A stretch of 64,000 nt of DNA from Trypanosoma brucei (Eukaryota), in assembly GCA_000002445.1 (NCBI GenBank), contig CH464491.1, positions 4,576,001 to 4,640,000 on the forward strand. Reading direction: 5' to 3'. Every line of letters begins with the position of its first letter. Position 1 is the first letter of the stretch. Positions 48,001-54,000 of the stretch are shown in pieces. The position numbers are program-made.

Positions 48001-51000
48001 CATATTTATGTTTGAAATTGTACACATTATATTTTTATCCCCTTTGCGTCTTTCTATGTCTGCTTTAATATTCTTCGTGTCTCCCATTTCACGTAACAAC
48101 TCACTCACTCGGATTGCATCCTTTCCTTTATTTTAACTTCCATTTGGTCGTTCATTTGGTTGTAAACACCACTCGTATTATAATATTACTATGTGTACAC
48201 TTACTCACATATTCTCCTACTGCTTTTACTAATATAATCTAACCCTAGTATCCATAAAATAAAGAAAATAAACGAAATGATAATAGCACTCACTATTTAA
48301 ACCTTCTCATCCTACTACTTTATTCCCACAGGAAACTTTATAACTAAAATTTGTATTTTCAATTTTTTCATATTTTTTTTGAAAAGTATTAAAATATAAC
48401 TCATTTTGTGAAAATTTAGCAAATTATCTTACAACAGCAATTATTATAAGCTTCATAAAATTGCAAAAAAACTTCTTAAATTTTTGAAATTCTACAGAAC
48501 TCACAAAGACAGAAGCCATCAGAGAAATTTTCTCATTGACAAGAAAAACTTGAAGAGCGGCACTCAGGTTTGGGAAGCTTGCCTGTGCCGTCAACATAAT
48601 CTATCCATCCACATACTGCTTACTCAGTCGGTTTGAAATCCTTGTTTTCCGCTTCACAGGATTGATGTTTTGATGTTTACTGCAAGTCACCACGGTATTT
48701 GTCTCTCCTGTTACCGCTTCAACTTTGCATTCATGTGTTTTTGTGTCATAGTCGCAGTTAGCTTCTGGTCATTCTTCTGTGGTTGTGTTTTTCAGTTTGC
48801 ATTTATTTTGTTCATCTACTGTTAGCTTGCTCCTTTGTTTTTGCAGTGTATTTTCTGAATTGGTGACTGTGGGGCCCTCTATTAATATTTTTGGGGGCTG
48901 CCGCCGGATTTTTCGGGGCATTGCGTTGCTCCTGCATTGCCCTACCGACACTGCAGTTAACTGCTCGCCGCCTCCCCTTGCTTTGGCTGGGTTGCTGTGC
49001 GGCGTCACGACCGGTGCAGGCCGCTACGGCGACTGGCTTTAGCCTCCTAACTCCATATTCTGCCACTTACAAATATTAAGATTTTCTCGTTGGCGCCTGT
49101 TGAAAAGCAAATCGTTTCTCTCAGCTAAACTGCCGTGCGACAGCGTAAAAAGAAAAGCGCGCACAGCGCTATAGGCCATGCGCCACCGTTAAAAAAAATT
49201 TAAAAGCTGCGTGCAGAGAAAAATGAAGAGCTAAAATTCGCAAAAGTATAAAACATAACAACTCTCGTCAGCGCTGCAGGCTAAAAATATGCAAACGAAG
49301 ATGCCAGCTTGCCAAATAAGGGCTAGATCCAGCAGCGAAAAAAAGAGCCGCTGTATCACTTACAATTTAAAAAATGAAGAATTATTAAAAAATTTTAAGA
49401 GGTAAATTAAAAAATATCACTAACCCTAACACGCTAACCCTAACCCGTAGCTAGAAAAAAAGAGGGTTGCAATAAAAAGGGGGGCTGCAAAAAAAATCAA
49501 AATAAAAAATGTGAAGAATTTAAAAAATGAAAAAGTCAAAATGAAAAAAATTAAAATTAAAAAATATGATTAAGAAAAATTCGTGGATTAAAAAATTTTT
49601 TAAATTCAAATTCAAAAAGTCGGAAAAATAAAAAGAAAAATCATGCAATAGAAAAAATGGTTAAAAAAAATTGGTGAAAAACGCGCTAAACTAATTTATC
49701 GGGAATTCCAAAAACGTAAAAATCAAAAAAATATATAAAAAACAAAAGACACAAATAATTAAATAGAACAAAAGGAATTGGGAAAAAACGTAAAAATCTA
49801 AAAAATACGATAATTTAGAGAAATTAAAGATTAAAAGAAAGCTAAAAAATATTAACCTTAAAAGAAAAAAATCAAAAATGCCAAAAAAAATAATAAATGC
49901 AATGCTGCATTCGGGGGTCAAAAAAATGAAAAAAATTTTAAAGCCAAGTAGTAAAAATGAGCCAAAAAAAGATCGCAAAAAAAAAACAAAAAAAACTGGA
50001 GGTGTGTGTGCGGGGGCGTGGGGCGGTGCGGAGGGGGGAAGGAGGGTTAGGATTTGCATAACAAAATGGCTGCTGCATAATTAGGAAAATAAAAAATTTT
50101 TTAAATCGAAAAGCTAAAGAAAAAAATTTAAAAAAATGTTTAAAAAACTCTAAAACTAGGGGTGAAAAACACGGAAAAAATTAAAAACCCTAACCCTAAA
50201 AATGTCAAAAAATTCAAGAAAAAAGAAAAAGTTTTCAGCTATCAGAAAACAAATTTTTTTTACAGAATCACAATTTTTTACAACCAACCAACAAACAAAG
50301 AAATCTCGGCTGTTTTTTACGTGTTAAAATATATCATAGTAGCAAAAATTTTAGCAAAGGGAAAAAATTGAGGGGAGAGGGATTAAAAAAGCAAGGCCAC
50401 AAATGCAGCAGAAACCACACTGAGGGCAAATTGTTTGCTTGCTAGAATAGAGGAATCCTGACATTTGCCTTCAATCCATCCACAAACGGCTTTCTTTCCC
50501 TCTGGTGTCTTGCCCGGGACCTTTTTGCATTCGTCTTCTGTTTTCGCCTCGCCACATTTTGATTCATTTTTACCATCTGTCCCTGCTTGGTTTGCTGCTA
50601 CTTTTTCTGCTGCCTCTTTGCCTTTCTCGCTCAATGTGCACCTTTTTTCTCATCTTTTGCTTAGGCCTTCTACGCGCATGGCGGTTTGCAATCTGTGTCT
50701 TTGTCTTTGGTATTGCACTCTGCTTCTTTGGAGTCGATTATTTCTTGTGGTTGGCGCTTGGAAGGTTTGATAGTTTCTGCTGCATGTGCTGCGGTTATAG
50801 TGGCTATGGCCAGAGTGTCTCGTAATTGCCACGCTTGAGCCTCTGCTGCTTGCAGTTTGGCCTGCATTTTGGCTAAGTCGGCTCTTATGGTATATGCTTT
50901 TTTCAGTTCCTTCGTTGCTTGGAGCATGTTTTCGACCCATTTTACTTTGTGGAATGTCCCAGTTCCCACTGCCTTCGTGTAATCAATACAAGTGGCTGAG

Positions 51001-54000
51001 GTGGTCCCGCCATTGCAGTCGACCGCATTGCCGTTGCCTAAGACGTACCGTCCGTTGTTGCTGTTGCCTGTGAAGGGTTTGTTGCCGAGGACTGATTCTA
51101 CTTGGGTGACTACCGCTGTCAGCAGTTCTGCCGTCACTTTTTTTGCCTCGCCGGCGGGTTGGCATTTTGCTACTATTGCCTTATATGCTGTGAGGGCAGC
51201 GGCGGCGTTGGCCCCTGTGCCGTAGTTGGCGGTGTTCTCGCCTTCTACGCATATTCCGTTGCTTGTGCTTGCCGTGCCGCAGACGCACGCCAGTGCTTGA
51301 GCCAGGTTCTGGCTCGCTGCCTTCGCATTGCCGCCGCCGTTGCATGCGTTGGCCCGGTTGTCGAAAGCTGCCTGGTCTGCCTCGGTGGCCATTTCATGCT
51401 TAAAAACCGCCGCTTTTAAGAACTTTTCGGTACTTTGTTTTAAGCCTTGAAGTTCGTTTTGTTTGCAGGCTGCCTCCTCCGCTATCGCCTTTGTTGAGTT
51501 GTACAGCCTTTCTAAAGCAGTGTGCGTCGCCCGCTTAGCCGGGCATTCCGGTGGCCTGGTGTAAACTGCCAATTTTTCAGCGTTTTTTTCGTTTTTTATT
51601 GTGTTTTTTACTGTTGTAAACTCGTTCTCCGTCTTGAGGACTCCAAAGGTTCCATTATCGTAGTGTGCGTCCGGTATGGTTGTCGCGTACAGCGCCTTCA
51701 CAGCCGCCGGTACTTCTGCCACCGCGTCTGCGGCATTGAAAGTTGCCGGGTCGATGGTGCCTGTCTCTGCCTGATATGCTGCACAAAGAGCTTCGTACTC
51801 CTGTGCATTTTCTCGCGTCGAATGTGCCACTGAAGTCAAAGCTGCTAGTGCGGTTAGTAGATTCGCTATTAGTGACCGCATTACCTATAAGTTAGTAAAT
51901 TTATGGTTTTATTTCTGTTGTAATGCGTAAATGTTCGTCCAATTATAGTGGCTTGTGAGCAAGTTTGGATGTCACAGAATCTTGTCTGTTTGTGGCGTTC
52001 TTTAAGACTTTAAGGCTAAAACATTAATTTTAATTATAAATCACCGTGGCAGGTGATTTTTTGTGATCAAACATCTTTCAAGTACCTTCGGAATCATATT
52101 TTATAAGTCTTAAGCAAATACCCTTCTTCAAACGCGTAAATACAATTTTTGTCATACGCGAAATTAAAATTTTCCAACCTCTCGTGAAGTTTAAATCTTT
52201 CTTAACTCTATTGTACTAAATTTACTCCCTTTTAAACACGCGTAAAAACTAAGATTTTTTTACGATTACCTCACTTTCTCCTCTCATTCAATTGGCTGCC
52301 CAGGAAAATGAATAACTGGAGCCTCTCCAATCACCACACTATTTGTAATAGAAAAAAATCTCTCCTTATAATCCAATCAAACCATCCCTCTCTTCAAAAC
52401 AAATCTCTTCCTCACCGCTTCTTCCTGAATCGCACTCCAAATTAATAAAGGTTTTTAAATACTTTTATCCGATCACAATTCCTCTCTCCCTTTTAATAAT
52501 TACACAAATGCATATTCAAGCCGTTTAAGCGCTTGTACTCTTGCTATTAAAGGATCCACCTCTAAGATAAGGTTTTCCGCTAAGATGTGATTTTAGTAAA
52601 TAAGGTAGCTTTTAATCCTCTTATTTTCTATAACTAACATTTAAAAACAAAAAGCATCTCTGCACACGTTCTTTGTTAACATTTTCTTTACTTTCTGCAC
52701 TATTTTGTATAAAATATTCCAAAGAATTCAAAAACTTATCACGGTCGGATATTATAACATCAGACCCATACAAATGAATTACAATATTCTTATCACTTAT
52801 ATTCTTCCTTTCTAAAAAATACATAACCCATCTAGGTCTTTTGACATGACTATACAAACCTCTTATCGCAATTGTAATAATTTCAAAATGACTTTGTTTG
52901 GCACTCAATATGAATCTACATCATCCTTGCGTTGCATGACTTTGTATCACAACCACAATAATTCTGTGTTTTTATTGTCATCATCGGTTATGTTTGTCTT
53001 TGTTATATCCTCTTGAAGTGATATAGTACTTCGATACACTAAATGTAATATAACCAATAAATCTTTCAAGACACATAACTTTATGTCATAAAATACTTTA
53101 ATGAATGAAAGGAACGTATAAAACATTTTTTGAATGTATATAAACTTATCCACTAAGTTTTTTAGTTGAAGAAACAGTGTTAACAAATGTAAATAGTGCC
53201 TTGATATAGTTTCTATGTCTCCTTAAGGGAATGTGCGTGGTGTCTGAAACTTATTTTTGAGCACACACTTACGGCGGTTGTCTTAGAAGTTCTCTTGTGT
53301 TACGGCTAGCGCCTGACACTATTATTCTTCCGTTTTCAATTGCATTCATCACATTTTTTAATCATGCACTGTTACGGGTATTACAGTAGGTAGGAGCATT
53401 ATTAGTGGATACATACTTATAATTTTACTAGTTGATACTGATAACCATCCTAACCAGCGGATTTCATAAGACCCTAATCGGAGTAGCGGTAATAACTAAC
53501 GGCACTGTTTTTGCTAGCATCGTCTCCACCCCCGCGTCTCTTCATTATATATTGAAATGTAGAGCACAATACTCTCCTGTATTACTTCTTTCTTTTACCT
53601 TCTGTCTCTGTTTTTATGAATAAAGTGGTGACTCCAATTTGTCCTGCACTCTGTCTCTCCTTTATTTTCCCCTCCATTGTCTCTCTGTGTATGGCGGTGC
53701 GTAAAAAATGCTTATGTTTAAAACTGAACATCTTTCACATTCTCACCCGTCCAATTATTTATGTTTTTGTGCGTCTTCTTTAATAATACACCCAGTATTA
53801 CCATTCACTCTCTTAATCCCACAGTGCCCGTGCCATTGTTTTAAATTCTTTTCTTTTGTTCAAATCATATGGTTTTTACAAAACTCCGATCTTCTTATAT
53901 TAATAGCATGCACACACTCATAACACAATTCTATCACTATAATAATAATCATTATGATTATTATTATCATTGTTGCTGCTCTTATTATATTATTCGTATA

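What the first reader, a model, noticed from the sequence alone, without database searches (positions are those of the whole stretch)
49430..51881. Second VSG-to-interstitial-telomere junction 5.8 kb away, part of a tandemly duplicated ~5.8-kb unit
The unit [VSG, 16-mer, TTAGGG-like tract, A-rich block with GC island, ~350-bp element, VSG C-terminal fragment, 70-bp repeat, unknown-family gene] occurs twice in direct orientation on the minus strand. One copy spans 57738 down to about 52190 and the other 51881 down to about 46320. The flanks align well. For example 50320-50440 matches 56100-56220, and the GC island ggggaaggagggttag appears in both. The two VSG N-domains, however, are unrelated (MRSLIANLLTALAALTSVAHS versus MIKIAFHFIILVAVVRTVHS). 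Either the unit duplicated and the VSG body was later replaced by gene conversion, or two telomeric VSG ends were stacked successively.
Basis: seen in the sequence. Interest (0 to 1): 0.7.

Follow-up and report, generated by a model that had tools for sequence, protein, structure and literature searches.

The report
Relic telomere-type flanks in VSG array
Two neighbouring trypanosome surface-antigen (VSG) genes are each followed by short internal telomere repeats, but they are two old members of a modular flank family found at least five times in this window, not a fresh tandem duplication.

Summary
The described features are real. Two B-type VSGs on the minus strand (56161-57735; 50383-51881) are each followed by the 3'UTR 16-mer, a ~110-130 nt spacer, a TTAGGG tract, a T-rich block with an inverted C-rich island, a second degenerate TTAGGG tract, a ~350-bp element, a VSG C-terminal fragment, 70-bp repeats and a degenerate glycosyltransferase-like pseudogene.

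The two units are collinear, but only about 60-77% identical outside the generic VSG 3' end, and they are not each other's closest relatives:
- Unit A's [350-bp element + C-fragment] is 89% identical to a copy at 12.1-12.9 kb on the other strand.
- Unit B's modules are closer to copies at 7.4-8.8 kb and 35.2-36.1 kb.
- Unit A's proximal flank is 87% identical to the flank of an unrelated VSG in T. equiperdum.

Five of about 15 VSG 3' ends in the window carry this flank. It fits the 'TTAGGG-like repeats 3' of telomere-proximal VSGs' (Aline & Stuart 1989). Independent T. equiperdum contigs confirm one copy in full (1399/1401 bases) and parts of both units.

Best reading: these are relics of telomeric VSG ends inside an array, spread and reshuffled module by module. 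Interest is moderate to low, and present-day function is unproven.

The parts
56161..57735 (-). VSG A, an intact B-type VSG of 524 aa (an upstream ATG at 57861 would give 566 aa)
   Evidence: Pfam VSG_B E 1e-61 plus Trypan_glycop_C E 4e-23. 100% nucleotide identity to T. equiperdum OVI contig CZPT02001062 over 57817-56273.
55997..56160 (-). VSG A 3'UTR with the 16-mer (56107-56122), followed by a conserved pyrimidine-rich spacer
   Evidence: Exact 16-mer. The stretch from the 16-mer through the spacer into the start of the TTAGGG-like tract (56125-55950) is 86.7% identical to the flank of an unrelated VSG on T. equiperdum contig CZPT02001120.
55849..55996 (-). tel1 of unit A: G-runs and TTAGG variants, then about 11 TTAGGG units
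   Evidence: T. equiperdum contigs L001 and L004 both break at or in this tract.
55275..55848 (-). T-rich block of unit A (58% T on the VSG-sense strand), containing an inverted C-rich telomere-like island at 55563-55612
   Evidence: Composition. The island is 82% identical to unit B's island. It is 82% complementary over 22 nt to the G-run of tel1 (pair I1).
55190..55274 (-). tel2 of unit A: a degenerate TTAGGG-like tract
   Evidence: Homology between A and E starts here, at 55204.
54745..55189 (-). ~350-bp conserved element of unit A, with about 120 bp extra (54974-55095) relative to copy E
   Evidence: Alignments A1 and A4. Motif searches. 89.3% identity to 12166-12922.
54230..54744 (-). 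VSG C-terminal-domain fragment of unit A, with its own 3'UTR and a 16-mer-like site
   Evidence: Pfam Trypan_glycop_C E 6e-13 for ORF 54328-54699. 16-mer-like site at 54245.
53890..54229 (-). 70-bp-repeat region that starts the next cassette
   Evidence: Sequence read. 79% match to the 70-bp repeat at the start of T. equiperdum contig L004.
52195..53060 (-). Degenerate glycosyltransferase-like pseudogene in the co-transposed region upstream of VSG B
   Evidence: Weak PLOD GT-domain signal: Pfam PF25342 E 4e-4 (below the family cut-off) and LH3 in the PDB E 0.05. T. equiperdum contig CZPT02000422 spans 53167-50542 at 99.6%.
50383..51881 (-). VSG B, a B-type VSG pseudogene (N-domain ORF 50670-51881; C-domain in another frame, 50383-50634)
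   Evidence: Pfam. The T. equiperdum orthologue P0012 is 99% identical.
50200..50382 (-). VSG B 3'UTR with the 16-mer (50321-50336), followed by the spacer
50188..50199 (-). tel1 of unit B: TTAGGGTTAGGG, two units only
49450..50187 (-). T-rich block of unit B (54% T), containing an inverted C-rich island at 50000-50059
49415..49449 (-). tel2 of unit B: GGGTTAGGGTTAGCGTGTTAGGGTTAGTG
49090..49414 (-). ~350-bp conserved element of unit B
   Evidence: Its closest relative is copy C (69%).
48386..49089 (-). VSG C-terminal fragment of unit B with a 3'UTR and a 16-mer-like site
   Evidence: It is degenerate and contains stop codons.
46320..47300 (-). Second glycosyltransferase-like pseudogene copy, downstream of unit B
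   Evidence: It is 77% identical to the copy at 35235-36145 and 73% to the copy at 52195-53060.
7445..8780 (+). Copy C of the junction family. Order: 16-mer 7460, spacer, TTTTTAGGGTTA relic 7638, T-rich block, degenerate tel2 7953-7995, 350-bp element 7996-8275, C-terminal fragment, 16-mer 8765.
   Evidence: 1399/1401 bases identical in T. equiperdum contig CZPT02001055.
11786..12910 (+). Copy E of the junction family. Order: diverged 3'UTR, spacer, TTTTTTGGGTTAG relic 11983, degenerate tel2 about 12050-12095, 350-bp element, C-terminal fragment, 16-mer 12895. It has almost no T-rich block.
44087..44282 (+). Copy D: the 3'UTR, spacer and TTTTTAGGGTTAAAG relic of the A-type VSG at 42656-44086, cut short by a RIME element that begins at about 44283
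   Evidence: T. equiperdum has the same junction.

Best explanation
The window is a subtelomeric VSG array of a Trypanosoma brucei-group parasite.

The two junctions are relics of telomere-type VSG 3' flanks that now lie inside the array. Each has this order:
- VSG 3'UTR
- conserved pyrimidine-rich spacer
- TTAGGG-like tract
- T-rich block
- second TTAGGG-like tract
- a conserved ~350-bp element
- a dead VSG C-terminal fragment with its own 3'UTR
- the 70-bp repeats of the next cassette

This is a multi-copy, modular family, with at least five copies in 64 kb on both strands. It is not a product of one local 5.8-kb tandem duplication.

Inferred history:
1. One or a few ancestral telomeric VSG ends with a short terminal tract became joined to [350-bp element + C-terminal fragment + 70-bp repeats].
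2. The composite then spread through the arrays by segmental duplication.
3. Its modules were exchanged independently by gene conversion. The VSG with its proximal flank forms one module. The stretch from the second tract to the 70-bp repeats forms another. The 70-bp repeats with the co-transposed pseudogene form a third. The repeat tracts serve as the module boundaries.

Likely present-day role (inference, not shown): the region is non-coding. The conserved spacer and TTAGGG tract may give these array VSGs extra 3' homology to expression-site telomeres. They may also act as a telomerase seed or a TRF-binding site.
For: Shown here:
- Identity and orientation of all parts.
- Two classes of VSG 3' flank exist in the window, and 5 of about 15 VSG ends carry the telomere-type class.
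- All 4 isolated C-terminal fragments follow a degenerate tract plus the 350-bp element.
- A-B identity is lower than identity to dispersed copies.
- The strongest repeat in the whole window is A's distal module versus copy E, 89.3% over 760 bp. It is bounded by tel2 (55204) and the start of the 70-bp repeats (54220).
- A's proximal flank is 87% identical to the flank of an unrelated T. equiperdum VSG, whose contig ends in the tract.
- By contrast, E's proximal spacer shows only weak similarity to A's (z = 2.6). The ancestry is therefore mosaic, with a breakpoint in the tract / T-rich zone.
- Independent assemblies agree. Copy C is 1399/1401 identical in T. equiperdum. Window 53167-50542 is 99.6% identical. 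Window 57817-55989 is 99-100% identical.

From the literature:
- The VSG-to-telomere distance in expression sites is 200-1590 nt (PMC2567434).
Against: - No bona fide terminal VSG flank (expression site or minichromosome) could be fetched for direct comparison. 'Telomere-type' therefore rests on orientation, spacing, the published marker and contig ends.
- The origin of the 350-bp element is unknown. It could be native telomere-adjacent sequence rather than the captured partner.
- A and B do share the composite order [telomere-type junction + 70-bp repeats + glycosyltransferase-like pseudogene + VSG]. An ancient tandem duplication later overwritten by conversion is not excluded.
- All four C-terminal fragments are degenerate, which argues against a maintained function.
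- Identities near 60% in AT-rich sequence are close to the limit of reliable alignment.
Confidence: 0.6

Rival explanations
1. A single tandem duplication of one ~5.8-kb unit occurred, followed by replacement of the VSG body by gene conversion.
For: The two units are adjacent, in direct orientation and collinear from the VSG C-domain to the glycosyltransferase-like pseudogene. The composite order occurs exactly twice, side by side. The N-domains and the 300 bp upstream show no homology, while the flanks do.
Against: - A and B are not sisters for any module tested. For the 350-bp element, A-B is 62%, B-C 69% and A-E 89%.
- For the pseudogene, A-B is 73% and B-P 77%.
- For the spacer, A-B is 70% and B-C 74%.
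- The modules also occur separately. Copy P has the pseudogene without the telomere-type junction. Copies C and E have the junction without the pseudogene.
- Divergence between A and B is about 25-40%, against 0.1-0.9% between the window and T. equiperdum.
Confidence: 0.15
2. Telomeric ends were stacked successively. A shortened VSG-bearing telomere repeatedly invaded an interstitial TTAGGG tract elsewhere. Break-induced replication then copied everything distal to that tract. Each event added a new VSG proximal to a [tract - 350-bp element - C-fragment - 70-bp repeats ...] template.
For: This explains three things. Every copy shares the same tract-to-350-bp-element junction while the VSGs upstream are unrelated. 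The G-strand orientation is always away from the VSG. The breakpoint between A's proximal and distal ancestries lies in the tract / T-rich zone.
Against: A-E homology stops at the 70-bp repeats instead of continuing distally, as a break-induced replication product would. Later 70-bp-mediated conversion could have erased such a continuation. No direct evidence exists for the process. The copies lie on both strands of the window, which would also require inversions.
Confidence: 0.2
3. The internal telomere tracts are an assembly artefact, such as a chimeric join of telomeric reads or a falsely duplicated unit.
For: The T. equiperdum short-read assembly breaks exactly at the tracts. The tracts of A and B themselves are therefore not independently spanned.
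Against: The units are only about 60-77% identical, so neither a collapse nor a false duplication can have produced them. Copy C is spanned in full by an independent assembly of another isolate, with 1399/1401 identical bases, and includes both degenerate tracts. The flanking pieces of A and B are confirmed at 99.6-100%.
Confidence: 0.03
4. The interstitial tracts and T-rich blocks are maintained functional elements. Candidates are TRF/RAP1 or base-J nucleation sites, fragile sites that start recombination, or boundary elements. On this reading they are not decaying relics.
For: The spacer and 350-bp element remain recognisable across copies of very different age. The C-rich island is conserved between A and B at 82%. 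Unit A keeps about 11 good repeats.
Against: The tracts decay to 1-2 units in B, C, D and E. T-rich block length ranges from about 60 to 740 nt. One copy tolerates a RIME insertion. There are no Rfam hits. Binding data cannot be obtained with these tools.
Confidence: 0.1

Closest known systems
Conserved sequence organisation 3' to telomeric VSG genes ('TTAGGG-like repeats' 3' of telomere-proximal VSGs). Source: Aline & Stuart 1989, Exp Parasitol 68:57, as cited in PMC3708902.
   Same: TTAGGG-like repeats lie shortly downstream of the VSG 3'UTR, with the G-strand pointing away from the gene. The spacer is conserved and shared by unrelated VSGs. The distances are just under and within the 200-1590 nt range seen in expression sites (PMC2567434).
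   Different: Here the flank is internal. It is followed by a 350-bp element, a C-terminal fragment, 70-bp repeats and further VSG cassettes, not by a terminal repeat array. I could not read the original paper or compare its sequences directly.
Canonical silent-array VSG cassette: 70-bp repeats, co-transposed region, VSG, 3'UTR 16-mer. C-terminal 'gene fragments' are a known class of archive entries. Basis: established knowledge from the T. brucei genome papers, which were not readable here.
   Same: All of these elements are present. Ten of about 15 VSG ends in the window follow the canonical pattern, with the 16-mer running straight into the 70-bp repeats.
   Different: Five cassettes carry an extra 0.35-1.7 kb junction module between the 3'UTR and the next 70-bp repeats. 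In this window, every isolated C-terminal fragment belongs to such a module.
Interstitial telomeric sequences in other eukaryotes, for example the internal telomere tracts left by telomere rearrangements in Magnaporthe oryzae subtelomeres (PMC7367193, PMC1635262; seen here as search listings only; the comparison rests on general knowledge).
   Same: Short, degenerate, oriented telomere tracts lie embedded in a variable subtelomeric gene family and mark former chromosome ends.
   Different: Here the tracts are part of a repeated, modular cassette junction tied to antigen genes. No retrotransposon sits inside the tracts, except for an unrelated RIME insertion in copy D.
Tandem segmental duplication
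   Same: Two collinear units of about 5.8 kb lie in direct orientation.
   Different: The copies are not each other's closest relatives, and identity is uneven across the unit.

Membership tests
Variant surface glycoprotein (B-type) gene | VSG_B N-terminal domain, VSG C-terminal domain, and the conserved 3'UTR 16-mer | tested here: met
   Pfam PF13206 and PF10659. Exact 16-mers at 56122 and 50336. VSG B is a pseudogene.
Interstitial telomeric sequence | Tandem canonical telomere repeats (TTAGGG in trypanosomes) at a non-terminal position, in excess of chance | tested here: met
   11 hits against 0.11 expected. 11 units at 55849-55916. At least 6 kb of assembled array lies on both sides. Unit B has only 2 perfect units plus a degenerate tract.
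Telomere-proximal-type VSG 3' flank (Aline & Stuart organisation) | TTAGGG-like repeats a short distance 3' of the VSG, with the G-strand oriented away from the gene | tested here: met
   The first tract lies about 165-185 nt after the stop in both A and B.
Telomere-proximal-type VSG 3' flank (Aline & Stuart organisation) | Sequence homology to the flank of VSGs that are demonstrably terminal (expression sites, minichromosomes) | not testable with these tools
   No trypanosome telomere clones are searchable by DNA here. The only indirect support is 87% identity to a T. equiperdum VSG flank whose contig ends in the tract.
Recent tandem duplication | Adjacent direct copies that are collinear | tested here: met
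Recent tandem duplication | The two copies are each other's closest relatives, with roughly uniform identity along the unit | tested here: not met
   A's distal module pairs with E (89%). B's modules pair with C and P. A-B identity is 62-73%.
70-bp repeat (VSG cassette 5' boundary) | TRR-rich stretch plus a GTGTTGTGAGTGTGTGTATATACGAATATTATAAT-type core upstream of a VSG | tested here: met
   Sequence at 53930-54070 and 48170-48250. TRF period-74 array at 30613-30750. 79% match of 53980-54058 to the repeat at the start of T. equiperdum contig L004.
PLOD/LH3-type glycosyltransferase domain (for the 'unknown-family gene') | Score above the Pfam GT_PLOD gathering threshold, and an intact ORF | tested here: not met
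   20 bits against a cut-off of 27, E 4e-4. LH3 in the PDB gives E 0.05. All three copies have frameshifts and stops. This is only a weak resemblance.

The most novel reading that the evidence does not exclude
Interstitial TTAGGG-like tracts are active recombination boundaries in VSG arrays. Together with the 70-bp repeats, they would delimit a separately mobile module, [350-bp element + C-terminal domain + 3'UTR]. They would also mark sites where arrays grew by telomere capture or telomere-primed break-induced replication. Array VSGs that carry this flank would have extended homology to expression-site telomeres and a different activation probability. Many of the archive's C-terminal 'fragments' would then be parts of such junctions.
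Probability: 0.2. Interest if true: 0.55.

Novelty: new member of a known kind. Interest (0 to 1): 0.33.

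Why it matters
VSG arrays are the archive behind trypanosome antigenic variation. How arrays grow, and which silent genes are activated first, depends on flanking homology.

About a third of the VSGs in this stretch carry a telomere-type 3' flank with internal telomere repeats. The flank, the [350-bp element + C-terminal fragment] module and the upstream co-transposed region each have separate ancestries.

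This gives a concrete, testable picture of array growth from former chromosome ends and of module-wise gene conversion. By itself it is descriptive and fits existing models.

Tried and rejected
Searches that led nowhere:
- Exact-protein look-ups found nothing for VSG A, VSG B, the zinc-finger ORF and a T-rich-block ORF. The source assembly is therefore not in the collection. The nearest genome is T. equiperdum OVI, at 99.1-100% identity.
- An Rfam scan of the whole window gave no hits.
- Repeat analysis of the T-rich blocks found only weak low-complexity repeats and no clear unit.
- Literature searches for interstitial telomere repeats in T. brucei arrays found no description.
- Marcello & Barry 2007 and Aline & Stuart 1989 are not held in the paper library.

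Readings rejected:
- Chance or low complexity: ruled out by the shuffles.
- Assembly artefact: ruled out.
- The 'unknown-family gene' as a real gene: all copies are broken, and there is only a sub-threshold PLOD-GT resemblance.
- The 350-bp element or T-rich block as RIME/ingi-derived: there is no self-BLAST similarity to the RIME or ingi copies in the window.

Full report
**Context**

The window is a subtelomeric VSG array of an African trypanosome of the T. brucei group.
- Plus-strand VSG cassettes fill 1-44 kb, and minus-strand cassettes fill 46-62 kb. The two sets converge at 44-46 kb.
- The window is 99.1-100% identical to several contigs of T. equiperdum OVI (GCA_001457755.2), but not identical throughout. 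The source is therefore a close relative.
- No exact protein match to any other annotated genome was found.

**Checking the observation**

- VSG A (56161-57735, minus strand) is an intact B-type VSG.
- VSG B (50383-51881, minus strand) is a B-type pseudogene with a stop at 50670 and its C-domain in another frame.
- Each VSG is followed by the exact 3'UTR 16-mer TGATATATTTTAACAC.
- A pyrimidine-rich spacer of 110-130 nt comes next.
- Then comes a TTAGGG tract. In A it has about 11 units plus G-run variants, at 55849-55996. In B it has two units, at 50188-50199.
- A T-rich block follows, 54-58% T on the VSG-sense strand. It holds a C-rich island that is an inverted telomere-like piece. GGGGAAGGAGGGTTAG is exact on the plus strand at 50035 and 55588.
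- A second, degenerate TTAGGG tract follows (55190-55274 and 49415-49449).
- After it come a ~350-bp element and a VSG C-terminal fragment with its own 3'UTR.
- The unit ends with 70-bp repeats and a broken gene-like region.
- TTAGGGTTAGGG with at most one mismatch occurs 11 times against 0.11 expected. Every hit is on the VSG-sense strand.

**How similar the two units are**

A sensitive BLAST shows the units to be collinear, at 58-71% identity. Segment-wise alignment with shuffling controls gives the following picture.

| Segment | z-score |
|---|---|
| VSG C-domain | 18 |
| 3'UTR and spacer | 14.5 |
| C-rich island | 9.7 |
| 350-bp element | 15.5 |
| C-terminal fragment | 9 |
| Gene-like region | 35-39 |
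| VSG N-domain | 3.6 |
| 300 bp upstream of each VSG | 0.3 |

- At protein level the two N-domains share 25% identity over 170 residues.
That segment is the hydrophobic tail plus the 16-mer, which is the generically conserved VSG 3' end.
- 'The flanks align well' is therefore true only in a weak sense.

**The pair is not special**

A scan of all 16-mer-like sites shows two classes of VSG 3' flank.
- In the common class, the 16-mer runs straight into the next cassette's 70-bp repeats.
- In the second class, the 16-mer is followed by the spacer and a TTTTTAGGGTTA-type tract.

The second class occurs at five of about fifteen VSG ends.

| Copy | Position and strand | Notes |
|---|---|---|
| A | 56122, minus | Long first tract of about 11 units |
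| B | 50336, minus | First tract of two units |
| C | 7460, plus | Confirmed in full in T. equiperdum |
| D | 44138, plus | Cut off by a RIME element |
| E | about 11846, plus | Diverged 3'UTR, almost no T-rich block |

- Copies C and E continue with a degenerate second tract, the same 350-bp element and a C-terminal fragment.
- Copy D is cut off by a RIME element that starts at about 44283. I recognised its 5' end from memory. Its 3' half is 91% identical to 62346-62603.
- All four isolated C-terminal fragments in the window sit behind such a junction.
- The gene-like region has a third copy at 35235-36145 (plus strand), behind an ordinary junction. A fourth copy lies just left of the window in T. 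equiperdum.

**Who is related to whom**

On columns shared by all copies:

| Module | A-B | Closest other pair |
|---|---|---|
| 350-bp element | 62% | B-C 69% |
| Spacer | 70% | B-C 74% |
| Gene-like region | 73% | B-P 77% |

- A self-BLAST of the whole window shows that its strongest repeat is 12166-12922 (plus) versus 54973-54220 (minus), at 89.3% over 760 bp. This is A's distal module against copy E.
- That homology begins in the second telomere-like tract (55204) and ends at the 70-bp repeats (54220).
- E's proximal spacer shows only weak similarity to A's (z = 2.6).
- A's 16-mer, spacer and the start of its first tract are 86.7% identical to the flank of a T. equiperdum VSG. The conserved string GGTAGGAATGG(G/A)GGGGGGGTAGTTAG lies in that tract start.
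- That T. equiperdum VSG shares only 31% amino-acid identity with VSG A, and its contig ends in the tract.
- Unit A is therefore a mosaic of at least three ancestries, with breakpoints at the telomere-like / T-rich zone and at the 70-bp repeats.
- This is hard to reconcile with one 5.8-kb tandem duplication. It fits module-wise gene conversion within a dispersed family.

**Artefact check**

- Copies that differ by 25-40% cannot come from assembly collapse or false duplication.
- Copy C is present in T. equiperdum contig CZPT02001055 with 1399 of 1401 bases identical, including both degenerate tracts.
- Contig CZPT02000422 spans window 53167-50542 at 99.6%. It links unit A's downstream region to VSG B.
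- Contig CZPT02001062 covers 57817-55989 at 99-100% and breaks at the start of A's tract.
- Copy D, including the RIME junction, is also shared.
- The tracts of A and B themselves are not spanned by an independent assembly.

**What it is**

- The G-strand always points away from the VSG, as at a real chromosome end.
- The first tract starts about 165-185 nt after the stop codon, and the second starts about 890-940 nt after it.
- The VSG-to-telomere distance in 17 expression-site clones was 200-1590 nt (PMC2567434).

I therefore read the stretch from the 3'UTR to the second tract as a former telomeric VSG end.

All copies share the junction of the second tract with the 350-bp element. This points to one or a few ancestral events in which a short telomere became joined to [350-bp element + C-terminal fragment + 70-bp repeats]. 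Duplication and modular conversion would have followed. These steps are inference.

An alternative is repeated telomere-primed break-induced replication at interstitial tracts. It explains the shared junction equally well. It is only weakly disfavoured by the A-E homology ending at the 70-bp repeats.

**Function**

- Nothing here shows a present function.
- The tracts decay to one or two units in four of the five copies.
- T-rich block length varies from about 60 to 740 nt.
- All C-terminal fragments are broken.
- One copy tolerates a RIME insertion.
- Rfam finds nothing.

Several consequences are plausible. All are inferences from established trypanosome biology.
- The conserved polypyrimidine spacer may be the sequence that directs VSG mRNA 3'-end formation at a telomeric site.
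- The spacer plus tract would extend 3' homology to expression-site telomeres. [quoted passage not shown]
- Unit A's tract of about 70-150 bp could bind TRF or seed a new telomere after a distal break.

**The 'unknown-family gene'**

- It is a pseudogene in all copies.
- It shows only a sub-threshold resemblance to the PLOD/LH3 glycosyltransferase domain: Pfam E 4e-4 (below the cut-off) and PDB E 0.05.
- It lies in the co-transposed region between the 70-bp repeats and the next VSG.

**Novelty and verdict**

- VSG cassettes, C-terminal fragments, 70-bp repeats and TTAGGG-like repeats behind telomeric VSGs are all known.
- I found no description of such flanks inside arrays, or of the associated 350-bp element plus C-terminal fragment module, in the searchable literature. 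The key older papers could not be read.
- I rate the finding as a new member of a known kind.
The telomeric-relic reading is supported. The 'tandemly duplicated 5.8-kb unit' is better described as two neighbouring, anciently diverged members of a modular junction family.
- Interest is moderate to low (0.33).

Noticed in passing
window 44283-44812 (+): A RIME-like retroposon is inserted in the T-rich zone just after the TTTTTAGGGTTAAAG relic of the last plus-strand VSG. Its 5' end is ccctggcgatgccggccacctcaacgtgg and it has an A-rich tail. The same junction is present in T. equiperdum, whose contig breaks inside the element.
   Followed up: partly
window 62346-64000 (-): This is probably the 3' part of an ingi element. 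It contains a 432-aa ORF (62628-63926) with a weak C2H2 zinc-finger hit. The stretch 62346-62603 is 91% identical to the 3' half of the RIME at 44553-44812.
   Followed up: partly
window 46320-47300 (-), 52195-53060 (-), 35235-36145 (+); L005 627-1697: A family of broken glycosyltransferase-like pseudogenes lies in the co-transposed region between the 70-bp repeats and a VSG. The resemblance to the PLOD/LH3 GT domain is weak. Copies are 73-77% identical to each other, and a fourth copy lies just outside the window in T. equiperdum.
   Followed up: partly
window 44813-46260: The convergent strand-switch region between the two arrays holds about 1.4 kb of unassigned, non-VSG sequence with only short ORFs (for example 45045-45296 on the minus strand). 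The VSG expected after the glycosyltransferase-like pseudogene at 46320 is missing or truncated.
   Followed up: no
window 55583-55604 vs 55944-55965: In unit A the C-rich island is 82% complementary over 22 nt to the G-run part of the first telomere tract, 339 nt away. The island is therefore an inverted telomere-like piece. It could be a remnant of a fold-back or of a head-to-head event.
   Followed up: no
window 54974-55095 (-): Unit A's 350-bp element carries about 120 bp that copy E lacks, including a second GATGCAGCGGCT motif. The segment is flanked by a 20-nt overlap in the BLAST pieces. This is either a local duplication in A or a deletion in E.
   Followed up: no
L001, L004, L006 (T. 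equiperdum OVI contigs): The T. equiperdum short-read assembly breaks exactly at the TTAGGG-like tracts (two cases) and at the RIME 5' end. Such junctions are therefore systematically missing from fragmented assemblies and would be under-counted there.
   Followed up: partly
window 11786-12100 (+): Copy E has almost no T-rich block, with about 60-90 nt between the two telomere-like relics. The block is 290-740 nt in A, B and C. This is consistent with deletion between the two direct tracts or with expansion in the other copies.
   Followed up: no
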